Part shown: piece by piece, positions 1 through 62,466 of the stretch
How the letters are laid out: each line of letters begins with the position of its first letter
Position numbering within the stretch: the stretch's first letter is position 1
Source of the DNA: Escherichia coli
Lineage (GTDB): Bacteria; Pseudomonadota; Gammaproteobacteria; Enterobacterales; Enterobacteriaceae
DNA: 64,000 bases
Assembly: GCF_009931435.1 (NCBI RefSeq)
Contig: NZ_CP043414.1
Strand: one strand, 5' to 3'
The notes under the pieces: model-generated
Databases searched by the model: none
Told to the model about the DNA's origin: nothing
The model's input: the letters and a program-made list of their open reading frames with translations, nothing else
Translations under genes and position numbers: made by a program

Positions 1-4179
<4,179 letters not shown>

Positions 4180-4182
4180 AAC

Positions 4183-4215
4183 AATCGGATGGCGACGTCG
4201 TATCGCCATCCGATT
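4183..4215. terminator. Bidirectional hairpin between convergent ygjH and patA
   Basis: aatcggatggcga cgtcgta tcgccatccgatt perfect inverted repeat. Confidence 0.6.
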
Positions 4216-4220
4216 TGATA

Positions 4221-5711
<1,491 letters not shown>

Positions 5712-25290: not shown

Positions 25291-25356
25291 TTTGCATTCA
25301 GTATGTGGTTGTTTAGAATGTACAATATATCCACATTTTTTTGGGAGGGTCAATAC

Positions 25357-25755
25357 GTGTGCGAAATCAATCGTTCACGCTATTCAGCTTACCTGTTGCA
25401 TGTTCACGTTGTTTTTATGACAAAATACCGCCGTCCAGTTTTTGGTGAATTGCATCATGCAAACATGCGTCAGTATGTAGCGGAGGTATGCGCGGACTTT
25501 GGCGCCGAGTTAAAGGAATGTGACGGCGAGGCAGATCATGTTCACATGCTGATTGAATACCCACCGTTGGTGCAACTCACAAAGCTGGTAAACAGCCTTA
25601 AGTCCGTTACCAGTAGGCGGCTGCGGAATGATTTTATTGATTTGCGCGCCGCGTATTCAAAGCCCGTACTCTGGTCACGCTCTTATTTCATCGGTTCATG
25701 TGGTGGAGCACCGCTGGAAGTTGTGAAAAAGTATATTCAGAATCAGCGTGGCTGA
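25357..25755 (+). CDS. tnpA: IS200-type Y1 (HuH) transposase TnpA
   Basis: ORF track 25303..25755; probable GTG start 25357 after gggaggg SD; HuH motif HVHMLI and catalytic Tyr in SRSYFIGS. Confidence 0.8.
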   Translation: MCEINRSRYSAYLLHVHVVFMTKYRRPVFGELHHANMRQYVAEVCADFGAELKECDGEADHVHMLIEYPPLVQLTKLVNSLKSVTSRRLRNDFIDLRAAYSKPVLWSRSYFIGSCGGAPLEVVKKYIQNQRG

Positions 25756-46410: not shown

Positions 46411-48552
46411 TCAAAATTCCATTTTCACCGTGAATTGCACTTCACGAGGATCGCCAATCTGGTTGCCCAGATTATTTGTGGCGATGGAAGAGGTGTAATA
46501 CGTTTTATCAAACAGGTTTTTGACGTTTAATTGCAGTGTGACCGGATACTGCAATTTCATTTTGTATGCGGCGAAGGCATCGGCAACAAAATAGCCTGGC
46601 AGATAATAGTCAGCCCCATTGGTTGCCGAACGACGGCTTACACCATGTCCACCACCGCCAAACGTCAGTGTGTTATTGCCTGGCATGTTATGAATATCAT
46701 AGGTCAGGAATAGCGAACCGGTATGACGAGGAACATTCGGCAATGGTTTCCCTGCATAATCAGGATCCTCCAGAACCTTAGCATCGGTATAGCCGTAGCT
46801 GGCAATGATATTAATGTTTTCAGTTAATGCTCCCGCAAGGTCGACTTCTACCCCTCTTGAACGAACACGGCCTGCCGTTTTGGCAATGGTTTCATCACCA
46901 ACACTTTCGGTATACAACACATTACGTTTATGGATATCAAACAGCGCAATATCTGCGGTGATACCATCGAATAGCTCGAATTTTGCCCCGACTTCGTAAG
47001 CATTAGATGATTCTGGTGGTAGATCGCCAATGTAGCTGGCAATTGACGATTGCGGCATAAATGTTTGCGAATAATTGGCAAATAAGGATACCGATGGCGT
47101 CAGTTTGTAGACCAATCCCAGTTTGGGAGTCCATTGTTCATCGCGGCTGTCAGTATTGACATTAAAAGGACGGCCTTTACCCGCATACTGCGTGTAATAC
47201 TGATAGCGGAGCCCGGCGACGGCAATCCAGTTATCGGTCAGATAGAGTGCATCCTGTGCATAAGCTGAGTAGCTCTCCTGTTTGATCGTCTGATCACTGT
47301 CCGACGCCGAGACCGTTGTGCATTTGCTGGTATTGCCATAAACAGGGTTGTAGATATTGAAATCTTTAGCTTTTTTACAGCGAATCATATCTGTGCGCAG
47401 AAGATCATAATATTCATATGACACCCCACCCAGAATCTCATTATAGAATCCAGCAACATCAACATTCCCTTGCAGATCCGCACGAGTAGCATGCATACGC
47501 TGGGTAGATCCTTGAGTTGCATCAACACGCCGTGTCAGCGTTCCTGTCGTTGCATCATACGCGGTAACACGCGCCTGATTATCGCTGTATTTATCCTGGC
47601 TGTAGCTGTAATCAAAGCGCGCTGTCCACTGGCTATTGAGATGATATTCTGCGTTGAGTTGCGCCAGATCGGACTGACCATCTGTAATATTAAACGGTTC
47701 GTCAAAACGTATTTTTCGATCAACGTTTACGGGCTGTTTCGTCGTAAGGTCGAAAATCGTTCCACGATCGAACGGAGTTTTATAGTCCCGATGGGAATAG
47801 AGCATGGTTACTGTTGCATTATCACCAAACCAGGTGAGTGACGGGGCAATAAATGTACTGCGCTCTTTACCGAAGTTTCGCCAGTAATCTTCATCCTGCA
47901 CTTCCCCGGTAAGGCGATACGCCAGCTGAGTGCCTTCAATGGGACCTGTGATATCCAATTGCCCAGTGCCTCCGCCAAAACTGGAGGAAGTGGCTGAGAC
48001 AGTACCATGGAATGTTTTTTCCGGGCGCTTTGTCACGACGTTAATCAGTCCGCCAGGATCGAGAATGCCATACAGCGTGGAGGCCGGACCTTTTAGCACT
48101 TCCACACGTTCTGTGGCGGCGTTGAAACTGCGAGGAAGTACAGTTCGCAGGCCGTTGGTCATGATGGAGCCATCCCGGTTAGCACCAAACCCACGACGTA
48201 CAAAAGCATCCTGAGTCCCGCCTAATGTATTGGTCTGTACCACGTTACTGACGTTATAAAGTGCCTCATCCAGCGTCGTCGCATTCTGATTTTCCAGAAC
48301 TTGATCGCTAACCGTATTGACCACCTGCGGGATATCCAGCATCGGCATATCGGTTAATGTCGCCGTGGAGGTGCTCAGAGGTTGATAACCATCGGTCGCC
48401 TCAGTTGCGGTATTTGCATCCGCTGTAACAGTGATTGTTTCGCCATCTTTGGTCGTTACAGTGTCGGTTGCATGAATCATCGGTGCTGCAAAGAGCAGTG
48501 AAAAGAGCGCTCGACCTTTGAGTCCTGAGAATGAAGGTGTGAACATAGCCAT
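46411..48552 (-). CDS. TonB-dependent outer-membrane receptor (siderophore-type)
   Basis: ORF track 713 aa; signal peptide, TonB box ETITVTA, plug domain, C-terminal aromatic residue (FTVKMEF). Confidence 0.85.
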   Translation of the reverse strand: MAMFTPSFSGLKGRALFSLLFAAPMIHATDTVTTKDGETITVTADANTATEATDGYQPLSTSTATLTDMPMLDIPQVVNTVSDQVLENQNATTLDEALYNVSNVVQTNTLGGTQDAFVRRGFGANRDGSIMTNGLRTVLPRSFNAATERVEVLKGPASTLYGILDPGGLINVVTKRPEKTFHGTVSATSSSFGGGTGQLDITGPIEGTQLAYRLTGEVQDEDYWRNFGKERSTFIAPSLTWFGDNATVTMLYSHRDYKTPFDRGTIFDLTTKQPVNVDRKIRFDEPFNITDGQSDLAQLNAEYHLNSQWTARFDYSYSQDKYSDNQARVTAYDATTGTLTRRVDATQGSTQRMHATRADLQGNVDVAGFYNEILGGVSYEYYDLLRTDMIRCKKAKDFNIYNPVYGNTSKCTTVSASDSDQTIKQESYSAYAQDALYLTDNWIAVAGLRYQYYTQYAGKGRPFNVNTDSRDEQWTPKLGLVYKLTPSVSLFANYSQTFMPQSSIASYIGDLPPESSNAYEVGAKFELFDGITADIALFDIHKRNVLYTESVGDETIAKTAGRVRSRGVEVDLAGALTENINIIASYGYTDAKVLEDPDYAGKPLPNVPRHTGSLFLTYDIHNMPGNNTLTFGGGGHGVSRRSATNGADYYLPGYFVADAFAAYKMKLQYPVTLQLNVKNLFDKTYYTSSIATNNLGNQIGDPREVQFTVKMEF

Positions 48553-48650
48553 TTAGTCTGTTATCCCAAAAACTCGCGGATTGTCGCGAGTGAAAATTGT
48601 TTCTTATTGCTCACTAAGCACTATCCGTTTGTTATTTCGCCATCGGATAT

Positions 48651-48669
48651 GTAATTGAGAATCATTCAA
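48651..48669. promoter_or_regulatory. Candidate Fur box in the receptor/ABC divergent control region
   Basis: gtaattgagaatcattcaa, about 12/19 match to Fur consensus, core GAGAATCATT. Confidence 0.35.
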
Positions 48670-48925
48670 TCACGCGGTAATGTAGTAGTAAATGAGAAAT
48701 AACAAAAAATTGCTACATGTGTTTTTATGAAAGGTTTATACAATTTAATTGTTTTTAATTTATTAATATTTAATGTTTTTATTTTTATGTGCAAAAATAT
48801 TTTACCTGTTATTTACCTTGTTTTTGTGTGGCTTTTAACTGCTTGACTACTACATTTTGTGGCATCAAACTCTCAAAGGAGAATGAGTTTTATTTTTGTT
48901 TGTCTTTGATTAAGTTGGCGTACAC

Positions 48926-49735
48926 GTGGCACATAACGCAAAAGGGCAGGGGCTGATCCTCGACAATGTTTCTGCCGGGTATCACAAGAAAATCATTGTT
49001 GATGGTGTTTCTTTCTCCGTTCCCACAGAAAAAATGACCGTTCTGGTTGGGGCAAACGGCTGTGGAAAGTCGACGCTGCTCAGCACCATTGCTCGTATCT
49101 TGCATCCCATGGGCGGTTCGATATTGCTTGATGGCAACGCGATTCACGAGCAACCAACGAAAGCGTTATCCCGTAGACTTGGGATCTTGCCGCAGTCGCC
49201 ATTATTGCCGGAGGGCTTAACCGTTTATGAACTGGTGTCGCGTGGGCGTTTTCCCTGGCAGAATTTCATTCGTCAATGGAGCGACGCCGATGAGCTGGCG
49301 GTAGAAGAGGCCCTGAAATTAACGGGTACGCAGGAGTTTGCACATTTACCTGTTGAAAAACTCTCTGGTGGGCAGCGCCAGCGTTGCTGGATTGCGATGG
49401 TGTTGGCGCAAAAGACGCCTTATATCCTGCTGGATGAACCCACAACCTGGCTTGATTTACGTTATCAGGTTGAAATTCTTGAGTTATTACATGATTTAAC
49501 GCGTCATCACGGGCGTACAGTCGTCGTGGTGTTGCATGATCTGAATTTTGCCGTCAATTATGGCGATACGTTGATATTTTTACGCCAGGGGAAAGTGGTG
49601 CGTGTGTTGAATGAGGGGGAGCATTGCACGCCTGAGCTGGTAAAAGCGGTCTTTGACGTTGATGTTCACGCATCAATAAATCCTCTGACGGGAAAGCCGT
49701 TCTTCATGCCGTTTCGTGGTGTAGAAAAAGTATGA
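48926..49735 (+). CDS. Iron-siderophore ABC transporter ATP-binding protein (FecE/FepC-like)
   Basis: ORF track 269 aa; Walker A GANGCGKST, signature LSGGQRQR, Walker B ILLDEP; GTG start with weak SD. Confidence 0.85.
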   Translation: MAHNAKGQGLILDNVSAGYHKKIIVDGVSFSVPTEKMTVLVGANGCGKSTLLSTIARILHPMGGSILLDGNAIHEQPTKALSRRLGILPQSPLLPEGLTVYELVSRGRFPWQNFIRQWSDADELAVEEALKLTGTQEFAHLPVEKLSGGQRQRCWIAMVLAQKTPYILLDEPTTWLDLRYQVEILELLHDLTRHHGRTVVVVLHDLNFAVNYGDTLIFLRQGKVVRVLNEGEHCTPELVKAVFDVDVHASINPLTGKPFFMPFRGVEKV

Positions 49736-50715
49736 TGCGCACAGGGCTGGTTACTGTAATTTTCCTCGCCTTACTGCTGGTGGGATGCGTGGTATATCCA
49801 GGGATTGGTGCCCGATTTATTGCACCACAAACGGTGTTGCAGGCATTTCTTCATTTTGATCTGCAAAACTTCGATCACAACGTAATTGTAAGACTCCGTT
49901 TGCCGCGTTTAGCGGCAGCATTGCTTACCGGTGCTTCTCTTGGCGTTGCTGGTGCTTTGTTGCAGGCTGTCATTCGTAACCCATTGGGGGAGCCACATAT
50001 TTTAGGCTTAAATGCCGGAGCCGCTCTTGCTGTCGTTGCCGCCAGTGCGCTTGGACTGGCCTTTCCGATTGGACGCCCACTGCTGGCATCTACGGGGGGC
50101 GCGTTATTGTTCCTGTTGATATTGCTGCTTTCCTCCGCAGGGCGTTCAGGGTTAACGCCAATGAAAGTTACTTTATGCGGCGTGGCGCTATCGGCGTTCG
50201 TGTCCTCAATAACGGCTGCAATCCTGATTCTTGACGAACAAACACTGCTGGCGATGCGGACATGGCTAGCAGGTGATTTAGCGGGGCAGGATTGGGCGAC
50301 GCTGGGTACGTCCGCCTGGTTTTCTCTGGGGGGATTTGTGTTAGCCCTTTACCTTGCACCCTCCCTTAACATGTTGGCACTGGGCGATCGCATGGCGCAG
50401 GGGCTGGGCGTCTCTGTATTCCGCACGCGAACATTCACCCTGCTTGCGATCGCGTTGCTCTGTGGCGCAGCCGTATCGATTGCTGGCCCCATTGGTTTTG
50501 TCGGCCTGCTAGTACCGCAGATTGTCCGGCGTCTGGTATCAGCGGATCTGCGCGTTCTGCTCCCTCTTTCAGCTTGTGTCGGCGCACTTTTGTTATTACT
50601 GGCAGATATTATTGCCCGTACGCTTTTCACGCCCCATGAGTTAGCGACCGGTGTCATGACGGCGTTAGTTGGTGCGCCTGTTTTTGTCATTATGGCGACG
50701 AGGATGTTCAAATGA
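49732..50715 (+). CDS. ABC transporter permease (FecCD family)
   Basis: ORF track 327 aa polytopic; overlaps neighbours by 4 nt. Confidence 0.85.
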   Translation: MMRTGLVTVIFLALLLVGCVVYPGIGARFIAPQTVLQAFLHFDLQNFDHNVIVRLRLPRLAAALLTGASLGVAGALLQAVIRNPLGEPHILGLNAGAALAVVAASALGLAFPIGRPLLASTGGALLFLLILLLSSAGRSGLTPMKVTLCGVALSAFVSSITAAILILDEQTLLAMRTWLAGDLAGQDWATLGTSAWFSLGGFVLALYLAPSLNMLALGDRMAQGLGVSVFRTRTFTLLAIALLCGAAVSIAGPIGFVGLLVPQIVRRLVSADLRVLLPLSACVGALLLLLADIIARTLFTPHELATGVMTALVGAPVFVIMATRMFK

Positions 50716-51761
50716 GTCGGATAATGAACGTCGGGCTACGCCCACTACGTGTTGGTAAGTTTTCGACACTGGTACGCCCTAAAAATCTGCTGTTGCTTGG
50801 TGGGCTGTTCCTGCTTGCGGTTGGAATACTGATATTCGGTCTGATGCAGGGTTCTTTCTCTGTTCCGGCATCGGAAGTAGGACGAGCGTTGTTTGCTCCA
50901 GAAAACGTAAGCACAGACGCACGTTATATTGTGCAGGATATTCGCTTGCCGAGAGTCATCATGGCATTGCTATGCGGGGCCATGTTAGGTATGGCAGGGG
51001 CCGCAATGCAATCCATTGCACGTAACGGCCTTGCCGATCCTGGTTTAATCGGCGTCAAAGAAGGATGTAGCGTGGCTGTGCTGTGGCTGATTTTCCAGTT
51101 TCCAATGCTGGGAATGTTCTGGCGTCCAGTGGCTGGTCTTGCTGGCGGCCTGTTGGTGGCTTTAATCGTGATTTTTTGTGCGCGCGATATTTCCCGCCCG
51201 CGATTTGTTCTGATTGGTATTGGTGTTTCCTGGTTTTTCGCCGCCGGTATCGGTGTATTTATGACCACTGCAGATGTTCGAGATGTACAAACTGCATTGA
51301 TGTGGTTATCGGGAAGCCTGCATGCAGCTAACTGGATGTTAGTCGGTATTTCAGCCTGTTGGATGTTGCCAGCCGCTCTTTTATTGCTGTTCACCGCCAG
51401 GACGGCGGATATCGCTCTGCTTGGTCATCAGGTGGCAACCGGGTTAGGCGTGAATAGTTCTCGCCTGGCGTTGTTACGTGTCGCCGCACCCATAATCCTG
51501 ACAGCCGTCTGCGTTTCGTGTGTTGGTAACATAGGTTTTGTCGGATTGATAGCACCCCATATATCACGTTTTATTCTACGTGGCGGGCAGACGACATTAC
51601 TGCTGGGGAGCGCGGTATCGGGGGCGTTGTTAGTTATTCTGGCGGATAGCATTGGTCGTTTGGCTTTTTTGCCTTTGCAACTGCCTGCCGGAATCATTAT
51701 CTCACTGATTGGTGGACCATTTTTTTTGCTACTGCTCTGGCAGCGCAGGAACAGTTTTTAA
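50712..51761 (+). CDS. ABC transporter permease (FecCD family), second subunit
   Basis: ORF track 349 aa polytopic. Confidence 0.85.
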   Translation: MSRIMNVGLRPLRVGKFSTLVRPKNLLLLGGLFLLAVGILIFGLMQGSFSVPASEVGRALFAPENVSTDARYIVQDIRLPRVIMALLCGAMLGMAGAAMQSIARNGLADPGLIGVKEGCSVAVLWLIFQFPMLGMFWRPVAGLAGGLLVALIVIFCARDISRPRFVLIGIGVSWFFAAGIGVFMTTADVRDVQTALMWLSGSLHAANWMLVGISACWMLPAALLLLFTARTADIALLGHQVATGLGVNSSRLALLRVAAPIILTAVCVSCVGNIGFVGLIAPHISRFILRGGQTTLLLGSAVSGALLVILADSIGRLAFLPLQLPAGIIISLIGGPFFLLLLWQRRNSF

Positions 51762-51771
51762 CGGGAGTTAT

Positions 51772-52719
51772 ATGCGTTTATTTTTTTCTCTGCTGATACT
51801 GTTGTCATTTTTTTCCCGTGCAACAGAACCTGTTCAGGTATTTACTGATGATTTAGGGCGCAAAGTCACTGTTCCTGCTCATCCAAAGAGAATTGTCTCT
51901 TTACACGATCTTGATATCACTATTCCTCTGATTGAGCTCGGTGTACCTCCTATCGCCAGCCACGGGCGAACTCGGCCTGACGGTAGCCATTTCATTCGAT
52001 CTGGCGCGTTATTGACAGGTGTCGACTTTGATAATTCATCGATCGCCTTTATTGGTACCGCTGATATTGATATTGAAGCGATTGTGGCGGCAAAGCCTGA
52101 CCTGATCATCACAGAACCGACCCGTAATACGCCCATTGAACAACTTGAAAAAATTGCGCCCACGGTGAGCATTGATCATCTCAAAGGGGGCGCGCCAGAA
52201 ATCTATCGCAAGCTGGCAGAACTTACAGGAACGCAGTCGCAGCTGGCGATACTTGAACGCCGCTATCAGGCACAAATCAATGCGCTGAAGGCGACGCTGG
52301 ACAGCCAAAAAATAACGGTATCGGTGATTCAGGCAAACCAGGGAAAAATTAATGTGATGCATAGCTATCATTCGCTGGGGCGGGTATTACGCGATGCTGG
52401 TTTTCGTTTTCCGCCGCTGATTGAGAGCATTCCTGAAGGTGGGCGAATGGATGTGAGCGCGGAGCGTTTACCTGAACTGGATGCCGATTTTGTTTTTGCA
52501 ACCTGGCGCGGTGACACCGGGGGTAAACCTCAGGATGAGCTGGCAGCAATGGAAAAAGTCATGCCGGGATGGTGTCAGTTTCTGACTGCCTGTCGTTCCG
52601 GGCGTTATGTGCTGATTTCTCGTGAAGAGGCAATTTCTAACTCCTTTGCATCTCTGGGGCTGATGGCTGCGCAGATACAATCACAAATTGCAGGGCGACC
52701 TCTACCGGAGGCTAAATGA
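51772..52719 (+). CDS. Periplasmic siderophore-binding protein (class III, FecB/FhuD-like)
   Basis: ORF track 51709..52719; start MRLFFSLLILLSFFSRA at 51772 with gggag SD; signal peptide. Confidence 0.8.
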   Translation: MRLFFSLLILLSFFSRATEPVQVFTDDLGRKVTVPAHPKRIVSLHDLDITIPLIELGVPPIASHGRTRPDGSHFIRSGALLTGVDFDNSSIAFIGTADIDIEAIVAAKPDLIITEPTRNTPIEQLEKIAPTVSIDHLKGGAPEIYRKLAELTGTQSQLAILERRYQAQINALKATLDSQKITVSVIQANQGKINVMHSYHSLGRVLRDAGFRFPPLIESIPEGGRMDVSAERLPELDADFVFATWRGDTGGKPQDELAAMEKVMPGWCQFLTACRSGRYVLISREEAISNSFASLGLMAAQIQSQIAGRPLPEAK

Positions 52720-53604
52720 TCCAGAAAGATAAAGCGCGGGTTGATATTTTTGGTGAGCGTTTTCGCACTCGCGCGAGTCAGTTAACGCCTGGGTTAAGAG
52801 CTGTCGCCAGCTACATTAATGAGCATCGTGAAGTGGTACTCGAGCAAACGGCGATGGAAATTGCGGCCACGTTGAACACTTCCGATGCCACAGTTATCAG
52901 GGCTATACAGGCCCTGGGGTTTGCCGGGCTGCGTGATCTGAAACGCACTCTGGAACAGTGGCTTGGTCCAGCCCTTAGTTCCAGCGAAAAGATGTCTACG
53001 ACGGTGAGTAACTTGACGAGCGATGTTAACACCGCAATCGACTTTGTTCTTGAAGGGCATTTGTATACCTGTAATGTCCTGTCAGAGCCTGAAAACCGCC
53101 ACGCGCTTGCGCAAGCTGTAGCGTTGTTGGTGCAGGCACGGCAAGTCGCAATTTTTGGCATTGGCGCTTCGGGTATTCTGGCGGACTATACCGCACGACT
53201 ATTCAACCGCATAGGTTTGCCTGCCACGGCACTAAACCGTACGGGTATTGGCCTTGCCGAGCAACTGATCGCGCTTCAACGTGGCGATGTTCTGATCATG
53301 ATGGCGCAAAAATCTGCGCACCGGGAAGGGGTGACAACGCTTCGTGAGGCGAGGCGGCTGGGGAATCCCTGTTATTTTGCTGACAAACGCGCTGGATTCA
53401 CGTTTTAGCAAAGACGCCAGTATCGTGATTCATGTTCCGCGCGGGGATGAAAAAGGGAAAACGCCGCTACATGGTACGGTATTGTTGTGTCTGGAAATGA
53501 TTGTCTGGTCGGTAGCTTCCGCAGTGCCGCAGCGTGCGGTTAAAACCATTAAGCGAATTAACGATTTCCATCGAGGACTGAAAACGGGAAGAAAGAATGG
53601 CTAA
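52716..53604 (+). pseudogene. RpiR/MurR-family regulator (HTH_6 plus SIS domain) interrupted by a +1 frameshift near 53357..53362
   Basis: ORF 52716..53408 ends in NPCYFADKRAGFTF; ORF 53344..53604 in the next frame continues the SIS domain as GIPVILLTNALDSRF...; the two join across a gggg/aa run. Confidence 0.7.
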
Positions 53605-53993: not shown

Positions 53994-54575
53994 TTAACCA
54001 AAAATTTCCACAAGATGCTTGCGATATTCTTCAGTATAGCGGGGAACATCAGGCATTTTTATCACGTCATTAGCGATAAATGTCGGTAGCGGTTCCATAC
54101 CGAGGAATTGGTTTGCTTTATGGAACGGCAGGTACACACCGTCAACACCAACGCCGTGGAAGAACTGATCTTTTTCGGTGAAGGCTTCCATTGGTGCGTT
54201 CCAGGTCAGGGAAAGCATATATTTTTTGCCCTGTATCAGGCCGCCGGAACCGTATTTTTTTGATGGATCTTTGCGGGTACGACCATCGCTGGCATACAGA
54301 GTCCCGTGACCTTCGGTGAATACATCATCAATATATTTTTTCACTGTCCACGGCGCGCCCATCCACCAGCCTGGCATCTGCCAGATCACCACATCAGCCC
54401 AGAGAAAGTTTTGTACTTCGGCTTTGACATCGTAGTCGCTCTCGGCGCGAACAATACGGACATCATGCCCGAGGTCGCGCAGCGTGCCATCCGCGACTTC
54501 GGTCAGGGTGTCGTTCAGTTGACCATTGGAGTGGGCGAATTTTTTCGCGCCGTTGATAATCAGGATGTTGCTCAT
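53994..54575 (-). CDS. mdaB: NADPH:quinone oxidoreductase
   Basis: ORF track 193 aa MSNILIINGAKKFAHSNGQLN. Confidence 0.9.
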   Translation of the reverse strand: MSNILIINGAKKFAHSNGQLNDTLTEVADGTLRDLGHDVRIVRAESDYDVKAEVQNFLWADVVIWQMPGWWMGAPWTVKKYIDDVFTEGHGTLYASDGRTRKDPSKKYGSGGLIQGKKYMLSLTWNAPMEAFTEKDQFFHGVGVDGVYLPFHKANQFLGMEPLPTFIANDVIKMPDVPRYTEEYRKHLVEIFG

Positions 54576-57275: not shown

Positions 57276-57426
57276 TTTTTCATCCCTGCGATAACCATAT
57301 TTGCTGCCAGTAAACCGTGTTGTAACGCGCTCTGTACAGCACTAAATTTTATTTTTTTCCCTTAAGAAGTTGTTAAGGACTATCTTGTTAAATGCTCGAA
57401 AACAGACATTAAAGGGAGTAATAAAC

Positions 57427-57819
57427 ATGAAAAAATTCGCAGCAGTAATCGCAGTAATGGCCCTGTGCAGTGCACCGGTGATGGCAGCAGAGCAGGGCGG
57501 TTTTTCTGGTCCATCGGCAACACAAAGTCAGGCCGGAGGATTCCAGGGGCCGAATGGCAGCGTAACGACCGTAGAAAGCGCAAAATCCCTGCGTGATGAC
57601 ACTTGGGTCACCCTGCGCGGCAATATCGTTGAACGTATCTCTGACGATCTCTACGTGTTCAAAGATGCCAGCGGTACTATCAATGTTGATATCGACCACA
57701 AACGCTGGAACGGCGTGACGGTGACCCCGAAAGATACCGTTGAGATTCAGGGTGAAGTCGATAAAGACTGGAACTCTGCTGAAATTGACGTCAAACAGAT
57801 CCGCAAAGTAAATCCGTAA
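57427..57819 (+). CDS. ygiW: BOF-family periplasmic OB-fold protein
   Basis: ORF track 57370..57819; start MKKFAAVIAVMALCSAPVMA at 57427. Confidence 0.85.
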   Translation: MKKFAAVIAVMALCSAPVMAAEQGGFSGPSATQSQAGGFQGPNGSVTTVESAKSLRDDTWVTLRGNIVERISDDLYVFKDASGTINVDIDHKRWNGVTVTPKDTVEIQGEVDKDWNSAEIDVKQIRKVNP

Positions 57820-57871
57820 TTGTTAGCGCTCCCGGGACACGTTCCCGGGAATAATTTCGCAGGGAGGCAAA

Positions 57872-58354
57872 ATGAAAAACCTGACACTGGATGTAAATAT
57901 TATCGATTTCCCATCAATCCCTGTGGCGATGTTGCCACATCGCTGTAGCCCTGAATTGCTCAACTACAGCGTGGCGAAATTTATCATGTGGCGTAAAGAA
58001 ACGGGGCTTTCTCCTGTTAACCAAAGCCAGACTTTTGGTGTCGCCTGGGATGACCCTGCCACCACCGTACCGGAAGCGTTTCGCTTTGATATCTGCGGCA
58101 GCGTTAACGAACCGATTCCCGATAATCGTTATGGCGTGAGTAATGGTGAACTTACCGGTGGACGTTATGCCGTGGCCCGCCACGTTGGCGAGCTGGACGA
58201 TATTTCACATACGGTATGGGGCATCATTCGCCACTGGCTGCCTGCAAGCGGCGAGAAAATGCGTAAAGCACCGATTCTGTTTCACTACACCAATCTTGCC
58301 GAAGGGGTAACAGAGCAGCGACTGGAAACGGATGTTTATGTGCCGTTGGCGTGA
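57872..58354 (+). CDS. ygiV: GyrI-like effector-binding domain protein
   Basis: ORF track 160 aa. Confidence 0.8.
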   Translation: MKNLTLDVNIIDFPSIPVAMLPHRCSPELLNYSVAKFIMWRKETGLSPVNQSQTFGVAWDDPATTVPEAFRFDICGSVNEPIPDNRYGVSNGELTGGRYAVARHVGELDDISHTVWGIIRHWLPASGEKMRKAPILFHYTNLAEGVTEQRLETDVYVPLA

Positions 58355-58462
58355 TGAAGAATCTTTACCGGAGTGTGAGCCAAATCACTCGCGATAAGTT
58401 TGAGCGAACAATGCCACAGGCGTATTGTTGTTGGGCTTATAATTTCTCCGGTAAGGAATACC

Positions 58463-60070
58463 ATGTATACGCGAAATTTATTATGGCTGGTCAGCCTGGT
58501 AAGTGCGGCTCCTCTCTACGCTGCTGACGTTCCCGCCAACACACCGCTCGCCCCGCAACAAGTCTTTCGTTACAACAATCATAGCGACCCAGGTACGCTC
58601 GACCCGCAAAAGGTGGAGGAGAATACTGCCGCGCAGATTGTGCTGGATCTGTTTGAAGGTCTGGTATGGATGGACGGTGAAGGCCAGGTGCAGCCCGCTC
58701 AGGCTGAACGCTGGGAGATACTGGACGGCGGCAAGCGCTATATTTTCCATCTGCGTAGAGGTTTGCAGTGGTCAGACGGTCAGCCTCTGACGGCAGAGGA
58801 TTTTGTCCTCGGCTGGCAGCGCGCGGTTGACCCGAAAACGGCAAGCCCTTTTGCTGGCTATCTGGCACAGGCGCACATTAACAATGCCGCGGCTATTGTT
58901 GCGGGTAAAGCAGATGTTACATCGCTGGGTGTCAAAGCGATGGATGATCGTACTATTGAAGTTACGCTTGAGCAGCCGGTTCCTTGGTTCACGACGATGC
59001 TCGCCTGGCCGACGCTGTTCCCGGTTCCCCATCATGTAATCGCGAAATATGGCGATAGCTGGAGTAAGCCTGCGCATATGGTTTACAACGGTGCCTTTGT
59101 GCTTGATAAATGGGTAGTTAACGAAAAGATTACTGCACGCAAAAATCCAAAGTACCGCGATGCGCAACATACGGTATTGCAACAGGTTGAGTATCTGGCG
59201 CTGGATAATTCGGTCACCGGCTATAACCGCTATCGCGCGGGAGAGGTCGATCTCACCTGGGTTCCGGCACAGCAAATTCCTGCCATTGAAAAATCACTGC
59301 CTGGCGAGCTACGAATTATCCCGCGTCTGAACAGCGAATATTACAACTTTAACCTTGAGAAACCGCCATTTAACGATGTGCGGGTGCGTCGGGCGCTATA
59401 TCTTACGGTTGATCGACAGCTTATTGCGCAAAAGGTACTGGGGTTGAGAACGCCCGCAACCACGCTGACGCCGCCAGAGGTAAAAGGCTTTAGCGCGACG
59501 ACGTTCGATGAACTGCAAAAGCCAATGAGTGAGCGTGTCGCGATGGCAAAAGCCTTGCTGAAACAGGCGGGATACGACGCCTCTCATCCGCTACGCTTTG
59601 AGCTGTTCTACAACAAGTACGATCTGCATGAAAAAACCGCGATAGCGTTGTCTTCCGAATGGAAAAAATGGCTGGGTGCACAGGTGACGCTGCGCACAAT
59701 GGAGTGGAAAACCTATCTTGATGCCCGACGAACCGGTGATTTCATGCTGTCTCGGCAGTCGTGGGATGCGACGTACAATGATGCTTCCAGCTTTCTGAGC
59801 ACGCTCAAAAGCGATAGTGAAGAAAACGTCGGTCACTGGAAAAATGCGCAGTATGACGCCTTACTAAACCAGGCCACGCAGATCACTGATGCGACAAAGC
59901 GTAATGCGTTGTATCAGCAGGCAGAAGTAATCATCAACCAGCAGGCACCGCTGATTCCTATCTACTATCAGCCGTTAATCAAACTGCTTAAACCCTACGT
60001 TGGCGGTTTTCCGCTGCATAATCCCCAGGATTATGTCTACAGCAAAGAGTTGTATATCAAGGCACATTGA
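58463..60070 (+). CDS. ygiS: Periplasmic solute-binding protein (family 5, oligopeptide/deoxycholate type)
   Basis: ORF track 58400..60070; start MYTRNLLWLVSLVSAAPLYA at 58463. Confidence 0.85.
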   Translation: MYTRNLLWLVSLVSAAPLYAADVPANTPLAPQQVFRYNNHSDPGTLDPQKVEENTAAQIVLDLFEGLVWMDGEGQVQPAQAERWEILDGGKRYIFHLRRGLQWSDGQPLTAEDFVLGWQRAVDPKTASPFAGYLAQAHINNAAAIVAGKADVTSLGVKAMDDRTIEVTLEQPVPWFTTMLAWPTLFPVPHHVIAKYGDSWSKPAHMVYNGAFVLDKWVVNEKITARKNPKYRDAQHTVLQQVEYLALDNSVTGYNRYRAGEVDLTWVPAQQIPAIEKSLPGELRIIPRLNSEYYNFNLEKPPFNDVRVRRALYLTVDRQLIAQKVLGLRTPATTLTPPEVKGFSATTFDELQKPMSERVAMAKALLKQAGYDASHPLRFELFYNKYDLHEKTAIALSSEWKKWLGAQVTLRTMEWKTYLDARRTGDFMLSRQSWDATYNDASSFLSTLKSDSEENVGHWKNAQYDALLNQATQITDATKRNALYQQAEVIINQQAPLIPIYYQPLIKLLKPYVGGFPLHNPQDYVYSKELYIKAH

Positions 60071-60207: not shown

Positions 60208-62466
60208 ATGAGCGATATGGCAGAGCGCCTTGCGCTACATGAATTTACGGAAAACGCCTACTTAAATTACTCCATGTACGTAATCATGGACCGTGCGTTG
60301 CCGTTTATTGGTGATGGTCTGAAACCTGTTCAGCGCCGCATTGTGTATGCGATGTCTGAACTGGGACTAAATGCCAGCGCCAAATTTAAAAAATCGGCCC
60401 GTACCGTCGGTGACGTACTGGGTAAATACCATCCGCACGGCGATAGCGCTTGTTATGAAGCGATGGTCCTGATGGCACAGCCGTTCTCTTACCGTTATCC
60501 GCTGGTTGATGGTCAGGGGAACTGGGGCGCGCCGGACGATCCGAAATCGTTCGCAGCAATGCGTTACACCGAATCCCGGTTGTCGAAATATTCCGAGCTG
60601 CTATTGAGCGAGCTGGGGCAGGGTACGGCTGACTGGGTGCCAAACTTCGACGGTACTTTGCAGGAGCCGAAAATGCTACCTGCCCGTCTGCCAAACATTT
60701 TGCTTAACGGCACCACCGGTATTGCCGTCGGCATGGCGACCGATATTCCACCGCATAACCTGCGTGAAGTGGCTCAGGCGGCAATCGCATTAATCGACCA
60801 GCCGAAAACCACGCTCGACCAGCTGCTGGATATCGTGCAGGGGCCGGATTATCCGACCGAAGCGGAAATCATCACCTCGCGTGCCGAGATCCGTAAAATC
60901 TACGAAAATGGTCGCGGTTCTGTGCGTATGCGCGCGGTGTGGAAGAAAGAAGACGGTGCGGTGGTTATCAGCGCATTGCCGCATCAGGTTTCTGGTGCGC
61001 GCGTACTGGAGCAAATTGCTGCGCAAATGCGCAACAAAAAGCTGCCGATGGTTGACGATCTGCGCGATGAGTCTGACCACGAGAACCCGACCCGTCTGGT
61101 GATTGTGCCGCGTTCCAACCGCGTGGATATGGATCAGGTGATGAACCACCTCTTCGCAACCACCGATCTGGAAAAGAGCTATCGTATTAACCTCAATATG
61201 ATCGGTCTGGATGGGCGTCCGGCGGTGAAAAACCTGCTGGAAATCCTTTCCGAATGGCTGGTGTTCCGCCGTGATACCGTGCGCCGCCGTCTGAACTATC
61301 GTCTGGAGAAAGTCCTCAAGCGCCTGCATATTCTGGAAGGTTTGCTGGTGGCGTTTCTCAATATCGACGAAGTGATTGAGATCATTCGCAATGAAGATGA
61401 ACCGAAACCGGCGCTGATGTCGCGCTTTGGCCTCACGGAAACTCAGGCGGAAGCGATCCTCGAACTGAAACTGCGTCATCTCGCCAAACTGGAAGAGATG
61501 AAGATTCGCGGTGAGCAGAGTGAGCTGGAAAAAGAGCGCGACCAGTTGCAGGGCATTTTGGCTTCCGAGCGTAAAATGAATAACCTGCTGAAGAAAGAAC
61601 TGCAGGCAGACGCGCAAGCCTACGGTGACGATCGTCGTTCGCCGTTGCAGGAACGCGAAGAAGCGAAAGCGATGAGCGAGCACGACATGTTGCCGTCTGA
61701 ACCTGTCACCATTGTGCTGTCGCAGATGGGCTGGGTACGCAGCGCTAAAGGCCATGACATCGACGCGCCGGGCCTGAATTATAAAGCGGGTGATAGTTTC
61801 AAAGCAGCGGTGAAAGGCAAGAGTAACCAACCGGTAGTGTTTGTTGATTCCACCGGTCGTAGCTATGCCATCGACCCGATTACGCTGCCGTCGGCGCGTG
61901 GTCAGGGCGAACCGCTCACCGGCAAATTAACGTTGCCGCCTGGGGCGACCGTTGACCATATGCTGATGGAAAGCGACGATCAGAAACTGCTGATGGCTTC
62001 CGATGCGGGTTACGGTTTCGTCTGTACCTTTAACGATCTGGTGGCGCGTAACCGTGCAGGTAAGGCTTTGATCACCTTACCGGAAAATGCCCATGTTATG
62101 CCGCCGGTGGTGATTGAAGATGCTTCCGATATGCTGCTGGCAATCACTCAGGCAGGCCGTATGTTGATGTTCCCGGTAAGCGATCTGCCGCAGCTGTCGA
62201 AGGGCAAAGGCAACAAGATTATCAACATTCCGTCGGCAGAAGCCGCGCGTGGCGAGGATGGTCTGGCGCAACTGTACGTTCTGCCGCCGCAAAGCACGCT
62301 GACCATTCATGTTGGGAAACGCAAAATTAAACTGCGTCCGGAAGAGCTACAGAAAGTCACTGGCGAACGTGGACGCCGCGGTACGTTGATGCGCGGTTTG
62401 CAGCGTATCGATCGTGTCGAGATCGACTCTCCTCGCCGCGCCAGCAGCGGCGATAGCGAAGAGTAG
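60208..62466 (+). CDS. parC: DNA topoisomerase IV subunit A
   Basis: ORF track 752 aa; active-site region [10 protein letters not shown]. Confidence 0.97.

What the first reader, a model, noticed from the sequence alone, without database searches (positions are those of the whole stretch)
58355..58462. No mqsR-mqsA toxin-antitoxin genes between ygiV and ygiS
Only about 108 bp separates ygiV from ygiS. In K-12, as I recall, the mqsRA toxin-antitoxin pair lies between them. Their absence indicates a non-K-12 lineage and matters for persistence and biofilm phenotypes attributed to MqsR/MqsA.
Basis: partly seen in the sequence, partly recalled or inferred. Interest (0 to 1): 0.3.

Follow-up and report, generated by a model that had tools for sequence, protein, structure and literature searches.

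The report
Empty mqsRA site between ygiV and ygiS
This E. coli strain has no MqsR/MqsA toxin-antitoxin genes between ygiV and ygiS because it keeps the original, never-occupied form of that spot, which is the commoner form in E. coli and the only one seen in five sister species, so the finding is correct but ordinary.

Summary
The ygiV stop codon ends at 58354 and the ygiS ATG is at 58463, so 108 bp separate them, and the 64-kb window has no mqsR or mqsA. K-12 has 1,030 bp at this position. A self-contained 927-bp, 41%-GC cassette (promoter and operators, mqsR, mqsA, terminator) sits where the window has 5 bp (AAGAA, 58357-58361). The flanks are otherwise almost identical.

The absence is not a loss. 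The same junction (TGATG-GGGAA/GAGAA/AAGAA-TCTTTACCGGAG) occurs in O157:H7, in UPEC 536 and in other E. coli. It also occurs in E. albertii, E. whittamii and three further Escherichia species representatives, and none of these carries mqsRA.

Among 5,426 complete E. coli genomes:
- 2,299 (42%) carry the cassette, all at 99% identity or more.
- 3,120 (58%) have the empty junction.
- About 1,350-1,410 of the empty-junction genomes also lack ygiS.

Genuine secondary losses exist (IS1 and IS30 deletions) and leave scars; the window has none.

The window therefore shows the ancestral configuration of a known accessory-gene polymorphism. "Non-K-12 lineage" is true but uninformative. The phenotypic relevance is inferred only, and the MqsRA phenotypes are themselves disputed (Fraikin 2019). 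Already known, low interest.

The parts
57427..57819 (+). ygiW (OB-fold stress-tolerance protein), the upstream neighbour. Gene order is as in K-12.
   Evidence: ORF. TIGR00156 YgiW/YdeI family, 220 bits. 96.7% identical to K-12 ygiW.
57872..58354 (+). ygiV (GyrI-like/AraC-family regulator), intact at 160 aa. It forms the left flank of the site.
   Evidence: ORF. 97.1% identical to K-12 ygiV over 483/483 bp and 100% identical to the annotated ygiV of 2020CK-00188.
58355..58462 (.). The 108-bp ygiV-ygiS spacer, which is the unoccupied mqsRA site.
   Evidence: A contiguous junction like this one is present in 3,120 of 5,426 complete E. coli genomes.
58357..58361 (.). The 5-bp AAGAA segment that occupies the position of K-12's 927-bp mqsRA cassette. 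It is homologous to GGGAA or GAGAA in other empty-site E. coli and in other Escherichia species.
   Evidence: Alignments A1, A2 and A3; boundary computation.
58362..58462 (+). Conserved 101-bp ygiS upstream region, identical to K-12. It contains a perfect -10 hexamer TATAAT (58438-58443) and the Shine-Dalgarno sequence AAGGA (58453-58457). It is also an imperfect palindrome: outer arms 58362-58373 (TCTTTACCGGAG) and 58446-58457 (CTCCGGTAAGGA), with inner stem 58374-58381.
   Evidence: Sequence. RNA fold -38 kcal/mol, z = -2.83. Inverted repeat I2 in K-12. 93-95% identical to other Escherichia species, against 86-91% for the flanking coding sequences. No compensatory changes.
58463..60070 (+). 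ygiS (periplasmic OppA-like ABC substrate-binding protein, the putative deoxycholate-binding protein), intact at 535 aa. It forms the right flank of the site.
   Evidence: PRK09755 equivalog, 1274 bits. 98.2% identical to K-12 ygiS.
60208..62466 (+). parC, the downstream neighbour. It confirms synteny with K-12.

Best explanation
The window carries the ancestral, never-occupied ygiV-ygiS intergenic region. The mqsRA module of K-12 is a 927-bp, low-GC, self-contained cassette: its own promoter with two MqsA operator palindromes, then mqsR, mqsA and a terminator. It was acquired horizontally by only part of the species. It replaced 5 bp immediately after the ygiV stop codon and left the ygiS upstream region untouched. 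The window's lineage never received it, so ygiV and ygiS are 108 bp apart, as in most E. coli and in sister species.

Shown here:
- the exact boundaries of the cassette;
- homology of the empty site across lineages and species;
- the frequencies of the alleles;
- the absence of any scar in the window.

Inferred:
- a single horizontal acquisition followed by spread through descent and homologous recombination;
- that this strain has no MqsR-dependent RNA cleavage or MqsA-dependent repression, which assumes there is no copy elsewhere in its genome.
For: 1. Boundaries. K-12 has 927 bp (GC 41.1%) where the window has AAGAA, and the flanks are collinear. The surrounding DNA has GC 51%.
2. The same junction, with point variants of the 5-mer (GGGAA, GAGAA, AAGAA), is found in O157:H7 strain 611, UPEC 536, ETEC4070, E7, 1162invT2 and RM13752.
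3. All five other Escherichia species representatives recovered with YgiV lack mqsRA: E. albertii, E. whittamii, Escherichia sp. MOD1-EC7003, Escherichia sp. E1V33, and the roughly 90%-divergent 'E. coli' SCPM-O-B-8794. Three of them have ygiV and intact ygiS about 107-114 bp apart, with the homologous GGGA(A) junction.
4. Allele counts in 5,426 complete genomes. 3,120 have the contiguous empty junction. 2,299 have cassette DNA, every copy at 99% identity or more, although the flanks differ by 1-5% among genomes. The two counts add up to 5,419.
5. True secondary losses leave scars. H9Ecoli has an IS1 plus a 63-bp mqsA 3' remnant. MB20 has an IS30 between truncated ygiV and truncated ygiS. The window has intact ygiV and ygiS, no IS and no remnant.
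6. MqsR-family toxins occur on plasmids of Rahnella, Yersinia, Burkholderia, Pseudomonas and others at 55-67% identity, so the family is horizontally mobile.
7. The literature treats chromosomal type II TA modules, including mqsRA, as horizontally transferred accessory genes that are unevenly distributed among phylogroups. This comes from references cited in PMC7167474 and PMC5120126. mqsRA was reported absent from the B2 strain NRG857c (PMC7232551).
Against: The window's right flank (101 bp) is 100% identical to K-12. Its ygiS is closer to K-12 (98.2%) than its neighbouring genes are (96.5-97.4%). Recombination with K-12-like DNA has therefore touched this region, and a history of 'occupied, then replaced by an empty allele through homologous recombination' cannot be strictly excluded. 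Only 64 kb of the genome is visible, so a copy of mqsRA elsewhere in the genome is not directly excluded. A single acquisition is inferred from sequence uniformity, not from a phylogeny.
Confidence: 0.9

Rival explanations
1. Secondary loss. An ancestor of this strain carried mqsRA at this site and lost it, either by a precise deletion or by homologous replacement with an empty allele from another E. coli.
For: The immediate right flank is identical to K-12, and ygiS is more K-12-like than its neighbours, which suggests local recombination. Secondary losses of mqsRA do occur in E. coli.
Against: The window retains a 5-mer (AAGAA) homologous to the GGGAA/GAGAA of empty sites in distant lineages and in other species. 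K-12 lacks this 5-mer, so a simple deletion from a K-12-like allele would not recreate it. The observed secondary losses are IS-mediated and leave scars, and the window has none. The closest complete genome (2020CK-00188) has the same empty allele.
Confidence: 0.07
2. The module is present in this genome but at another locus outside the 64-kb window, so the strain is not MqsRA-free.
For: Only 64 kb can be inspected. MqsR-family modules occur on plasmids of other genera.
Against: In 5,426 complete genomes the mqsRA-positive set (2,299) and the empty-junction set (3,120) sum to 5,419. No E. coli plasmid in that collection carries the cassette: 0 places lay on plasmids. The two sets therefore look essentially complementary. 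The only near-identical 'plasmid' hit in PLSDB is a 4.9-Mb record, which is a mislabelled chromosome. Nothing was found in the window itself.
Confidence: 0.02
3. Assembly artefact: the cassette was collapsed or dropped during assembly.
For: None.
Against: The identical junction is present in thousands of independent complete genomes and in other species. The cassette is unique, non-repetitive sequence that assemblers do not collapse.
Confidence: 0.01

Closest known systems
E. coli K-12 MG1655 ygiV-mqsR-mqsA-ygiS locus (b3023-b3020), the type II MqsR/MqsA toxin-antitoxin module
   Same: The flanking genes, their order and orientation are the same (qseCB / ygiW ygiV ... ygiS parC plsC). The 101-bp ygiS upstream region is identical, and the ygiV stop codon context is identical.
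   Different: K-12 carries a 927-bp cassette (GC 41%) with two MqsA operator palindromes, mqsR (98 aa), mqsA (131 aa) and a terminator. The window has 5 bp (AAGAA) in its place and no homologue within 64 kb.
Empty-site allele of other E. coli (for example O157:H7 strain 611 and UPEC 536) and of E. albertii, E. whittamii and the divergent isolate SCPM-O-B-8794
   Same: ygiV and ygiS are contiguous, about 108 bp apart, with the same junction and the same conserved ygiS upstream region. ygiS is intact.
   Different: Only point differences. The 5-mer is AAGAA here and in 2020CK-00188, against GGGAA in most others and GAGAA in ETEC4070. The window's flanks are more K-12-like than those of B2 or E strains.
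ygiS-less empty allele (for example RM13752; about 1,350-1,410 complete genomes)
   Same: No mqsRA. The ygiV-side junction and the ygiS upstream region, including the first 22 bp of ygiS, are the same.
   Different: In that allele ygiS codons about 8-522 are replaced by 236 bp of unrelated sequence, so ygiV is followed by parC. The window keeps a full-length ygiS.

Membership tests
MqsR/MqsA type II toxin-antitoxin module | An mqsR toxin gene (RelE-like mRNA interferase of about 98 aa) | tested here: not met
   tblastn with K-12 MqsR against the whole window gave a best E of 1.9, which is noise. No ORF fits in the 108-bp spacer.
MqsR/MqsA type II toxin-antitoxin module | An mqsA antitoxin gene (zinc-binding N-terminal domain plus HTH, about 131 aa) immediately downstream of the toxin | tested here: not met
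   tblastn with K-12 MqsA against the window gave a best E of 1.4, which is noise.
MqsR/MqsA type II toxin-antitoxin module | Promoter with MqsA operator palindromes (AACCTTTTAGGT, two copies in K-12) | tested here: not met
   Both copies are seen in K-12 (repeat family D1). The window has 0 matches with up to 1 mismatch.
Ancestral unoccupied ygiV-ygiS allele | A contiguous junction TGATG-(G/A)(G/A)GAA-TCTTTACCGGAG shared with independent lineages | tested here: met
   Alignments A2 and A3. 3,120 of 5,426 genomes have a contiguous match across the junction.
Ancestral unoccupied ygiV-ygiS allele | The same state in outgroup species of the genus | tested here: met
   E. albertii, E. whittamii, SCPM-O-B-8794, Escherichia sp. 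MOD1-EC7003 and Escherichia sp. E1V33 all lack mqsRA downstream of ygiV. E. fergusonii and genera outside Escherichia were not recovered by the scan.
Ancestral unoccupied ygiV-ygiS allele | Both flanking genes intact and no IS element or cassette remnant | tested here: met
   ygiV is 160 aa and ygiS is 535 aa, both full length. The only cassette blastn match is the shared 21-bp flank.
Secondary-deletion allele of mqsRA | A deletion scar: an IS element, a truncated neighbouring gene or residual mqsA/mqsR sequence | tested here: not met
   Scars are seen in H9Ecoli (IS1 plus a 63-bp mqsA remnant) and MB20 (IS30 with truncated ygiV and ygiS). The window has none.

The most novel reading that the evidence does not exclude
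The 101-bp ygiV-ygiS spacer may itself be a functional element. It is a genus-conserved imperfect palindrome of about 96 nt (58362-58457), and its 3' arm covers the ygiS Shine-Dalgarno sequence. It is more conserved across Escherichia species (93-95%) than the genes on either side (86-91%). It could be a translation-masking leader hairpin for read-through transcripts, or a paired operator for a regulator such as YgiV. The mqsRA cassette landed exactly at its 5' edge without disturbing it.
Probability: 0.2. Interest if true: 0.3.

Novelty: already known. Interest (0 to 1): 0.08.

Why it matters
It matters little beyond bookkeeping. The result tells an annotator that this strain belongs to the majority of E. 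coli that never acquired mqsRA, so K-12-derived models involving MqsR or MqsA cannot be transferred to it. Those models include ghoST control, ygiS mRNA cleavage and deoxycholate tolerance, and rpoS/csgD repression. Because 58% of complete E. coli genomes and all sampled sister species lack the module, MqsRA cannot be a core stress-response regulator of the species. This agrees with the view that it is an accessory, horizontally acquired module whose reported physiological roles are disputed (PMC6918082, PMC7167474).

Tried and rejected
- Cassette ends. I looked for terminal direct or inverted repeats in K-12 that would indicate a transposon or integrase mechanism. I found only short chance repeats and the MqsA operators. 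No mobility mechanism can be named.
- Rfam on the spacer. Only two matches appeared at E about 5, far below the gathering thresholds, so no known RNA family is present.
- Covariation test of the spacer hairpin on 9 sequences. None of the 41 pairs has a compensatory change because the sequences are too similar. The result is inconclusive and is not claimed.
- Consensus promoter/terminator scan of 57300-58600. It found no sigma-70 site passing its rule and one weak terminator-like site, no more than in shuffled sequence.
- Rfam on the 236-bp sequence that replaces ygiS in RM13752-type genomes. No match.
- MqsR against the phage collection. No match.
The search tool returns counts and at most 60 rows, not per-genome lists. 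The published survey (Fiedoruk 2015) and the HGT analysis (Ramisetty & Santhosh 2016) are not held in the library.
- Norton & Mulvey 2012 (PMC3464220) mentions mqsR only in its reference list.

Full report
**Observation.** The ORF list and sequence place ygiW at 57427-57819, ygiV at 57872-58354, ygiS at 58463-60070 and parC at 60208-62466, all on the + strand. qseB and qseC lie upstream on the - strand. The ygiV stop codon ends at 58354 and the ygiS ATG starts at 58463, so the spacer 58355-58462 is exactly 108 bp, as reported. RefSeq annotation of the closest complete genome (2020CK-00188) uses the same boundaries. NCBIfam confirms the flanks: YgiS matches the PRK09755 equivalog at 1274 bits against a cut-off of 1098, and YgiW matches TIGR00156.

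**K-12 comparison.** In NC_000913.3 the order is parC, ygiS (b3020), mqsA (b3021), mqsR (b3022), ygiV (b3023), ygiW. Alignment and an exact boundary computation show that K-12 has 927 bp (3167820-3168746, GC 41.1%) where the window has 5 bp (AAGAA, 58357-58361). To the left both read ...GGCGTGATG, and to the right both read TCTTTACCGGAG... The 101 bp up to the ygiS ATG are identical. The K-12 spacer is 1,030 bp against 108 bp here.

The 927 bp form a self-contained unit. It holds two AACCTTTTAGGT operator palindromes, mqsR, mqsA, and a stem followed by a T-run directly before the right junction. The window contains no MqsR or MqsA homologue (best E above 1), no cassette DNA beyond the shared flank, and no operator palindrome.

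**Is it a loss or an empty site?** The same junction occurs in unrelated E. coli: O157:H7 strain 611, UPEC 536, ETEC4070, E7, 1162invT2 and RM13752. Only the 5-mer varies, as GGGAA, GAGAA or AAGAA. A scan of one genome per GTDB species with YgiV returned five other Escherichia lineages. These were E. albertii, E. whittamii, Escherichia sp. MOD1-EC7003, Escherichia sp. E1V33, and a roughly 90%-divergent isolate labelled E. coli SCPM-O-B-8794. None has mqsRA. Three have ygiV and an intact ygiS about 107-114 bp apart with the homologous GGGA(A)-TCTTTACCGGAG junction.

The empty site is therefore ancestral for the genus, and the K-12 state is a derived insertion that replaced 5 bp. The cassette's low GC (41% against 51%) fits horizontal acquisition. 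So does the presence of MqsR-family toxins on plasmids of several proteobacterial genera. Real secondary losses do exist: an IS1 plus a 63-bp mqsA remnant in H9Ecoli, and an IS30 between truncated ygiV and ygiS in MB20. These leave scars that the window lacks.

**Frequencies.**
- A 105-bp probe across the junction matches contiguously in 3,120 of 5,426 complete E. coli genomes (57.5%).
- The K-12 cassette is found in 2,299 genomes (42.4%), always on chromosomes and always at 99% identity or more. The flanks differ by 1-5% among genomes. This suggests one acquisition that spread by descent and recombination, which is an inference.
- The two sets sum to 5,419, so they are essentially complementary.
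- A third allele exists. In about 1,354-1,412 genomes the empty site is followed by a ygiS in which codons about 8-522 are replaced by 236 bp of unrelated sequence.
- The window's exact state, empty with ygiS intact, therefore accounts for roughly 1,710-1,770 genomes (about 32%).

**Lineage.** The window is E. coli but not K-12. Its genes are 96.5-98.3% identical to K-12. It carries a 7.2-kb iron-siderophore uptake cluster between parE and ygiN (46411-53604) that K-12 lacks. Its closest complete genomes are only about 99% identical (2020CK-00188 and R32_14_1F). I could not assign a phylogroup from 64 kb.

**Interpretation.** The functional consequence is inferred and rests on the module being absent genome-wide: no MqsR endoribonuclease, no MqsA repressor, and so none of the K-12-specific regulation attributed to them. 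The literature held here shows that the attributed phenotypes were not reproduced independently. These include biofilm formation, rpoS/csgD repression, and deoxycholate tolerance through cleavage of the neighbouring ygiS mRNA (PMC6918082; PMC7167474). It also shows that mqsRA is already treated as a variably present, horizontally transferred accessory module.

**Side observation.** The conserved 101-bp spacer is an imperfect palindrome. The arms TCTTTACCGGAG (58362-58373) and CTCCGGTAAGGA (58446-58457) plus an inner stem fold at -38 kcal/mol, z = -2.8. The 3' arm covers the ygiS Shine-Dalgarno sequence. The spacer is 93-95% identical to other Escherichia species, against 86-91% for the adjacent coding sequences. 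There is no covariation and no Rfam match. If the perfect -10 hexamer at 58438-58443 drives ygiS, the main transcript would start inside the 3' arm. The hairpin would then form only in read-through RNA. This is unresolved.

**Verdict.** The feature is an already-known presence/absence polymorphism, seen here in its ancestral and majority state. Interest is low.

Noticed in passing
window 58362-58457: The ygiV-ygiS spacer is an imperfect palindrome of about 96 nt. It has a 12-bp outer stem and an 8-bp inner stem, and folds at -38 kcal/mol with z = -2.8. The 3' arm covers the ygiS Shine-Dalgarno sequence. The spacer is more conserved across Escherichia species (93-95%) than the flanking genes (86-91%). 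The mqsRA cassette of K-12 abuts its 5' edge exactly. There is no covariation and no Rfam family.
   Followed up: partly
L002 6614-6849 (E. coli RM13752); also L009 4554-4925 and L011 3716-4143: ygiS has been lost repeatedly. About 1,354 complete E. coli genomes share one allele in which nearly all of ygiS is replaced by 236 bp of unrelated sequence with no Rfam match. Escherichia sp. MOD1-EC7003 and Escherichia sp. E1V33 carry independent internal deletions of ygiS. The origin of the 236 bp is unknown.
   Followed up: partly
window 46411-53604: A 7.2-kb iron-siderophore uptake cluster lies between parE and ygiN, where K-12 has only 47 bp. It encodes a TonB-dependent receptor, an ABC ATPase, two FecCD permeases, a substrate-binding protein and a MurR/RpiR regulator. 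The substrate-binding gene is annotated as frameshifted in 2020CK-00188. The window differs from that strain by a 1-base indel in this gene and another in the regulator gene.
   Followed up: partly
window about 25303-25755: An IS200/IS605-family ISEc41 tnpA lies next to ygiF, with a TnpB/InsQ gene beside it in the closest genome. This is probably why the 1-25000 query hit a median of 8 places per genome.
   Followed up: no
whole window; mdaB 53994-54575: The source lineage is poorly represented among complete E. coli genomes. The best matches are 98.9-99.2% identical, and most genomes are about 97% identical over 39001-64000. Identity to the closest genome is mosaic: mdaB 95.9%, hldE 96.4% and parE 96.8%, against 99-100% for neighbouring genes. 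This indicates recombination.
   Followed up: no
L014 (H9Ecoli) 1748-2584; L015 (MB20) 3001-5338; H81 (strain 203740): Rare derived alleles at the locus involve IS elements. H9Ecoli has an IS1-associated deletion running from mdaB's neighbour through qseBC, ygiW, ygiV, mqsR and most of mqsA. MB20 has an IS30 between truncated ygiV and ygiS. Strain 203740 has an IS1 inserted in mqsR.
   Followed up: partly
plasmid collection hit H158 (NZ_CP141089.1): PLSDB holds a 4.9-Mb E. coli record, evidently a chromosome filed as a plasmid. It is the only 100% MqsR hit in the plasmid collection.
   Followed up: no
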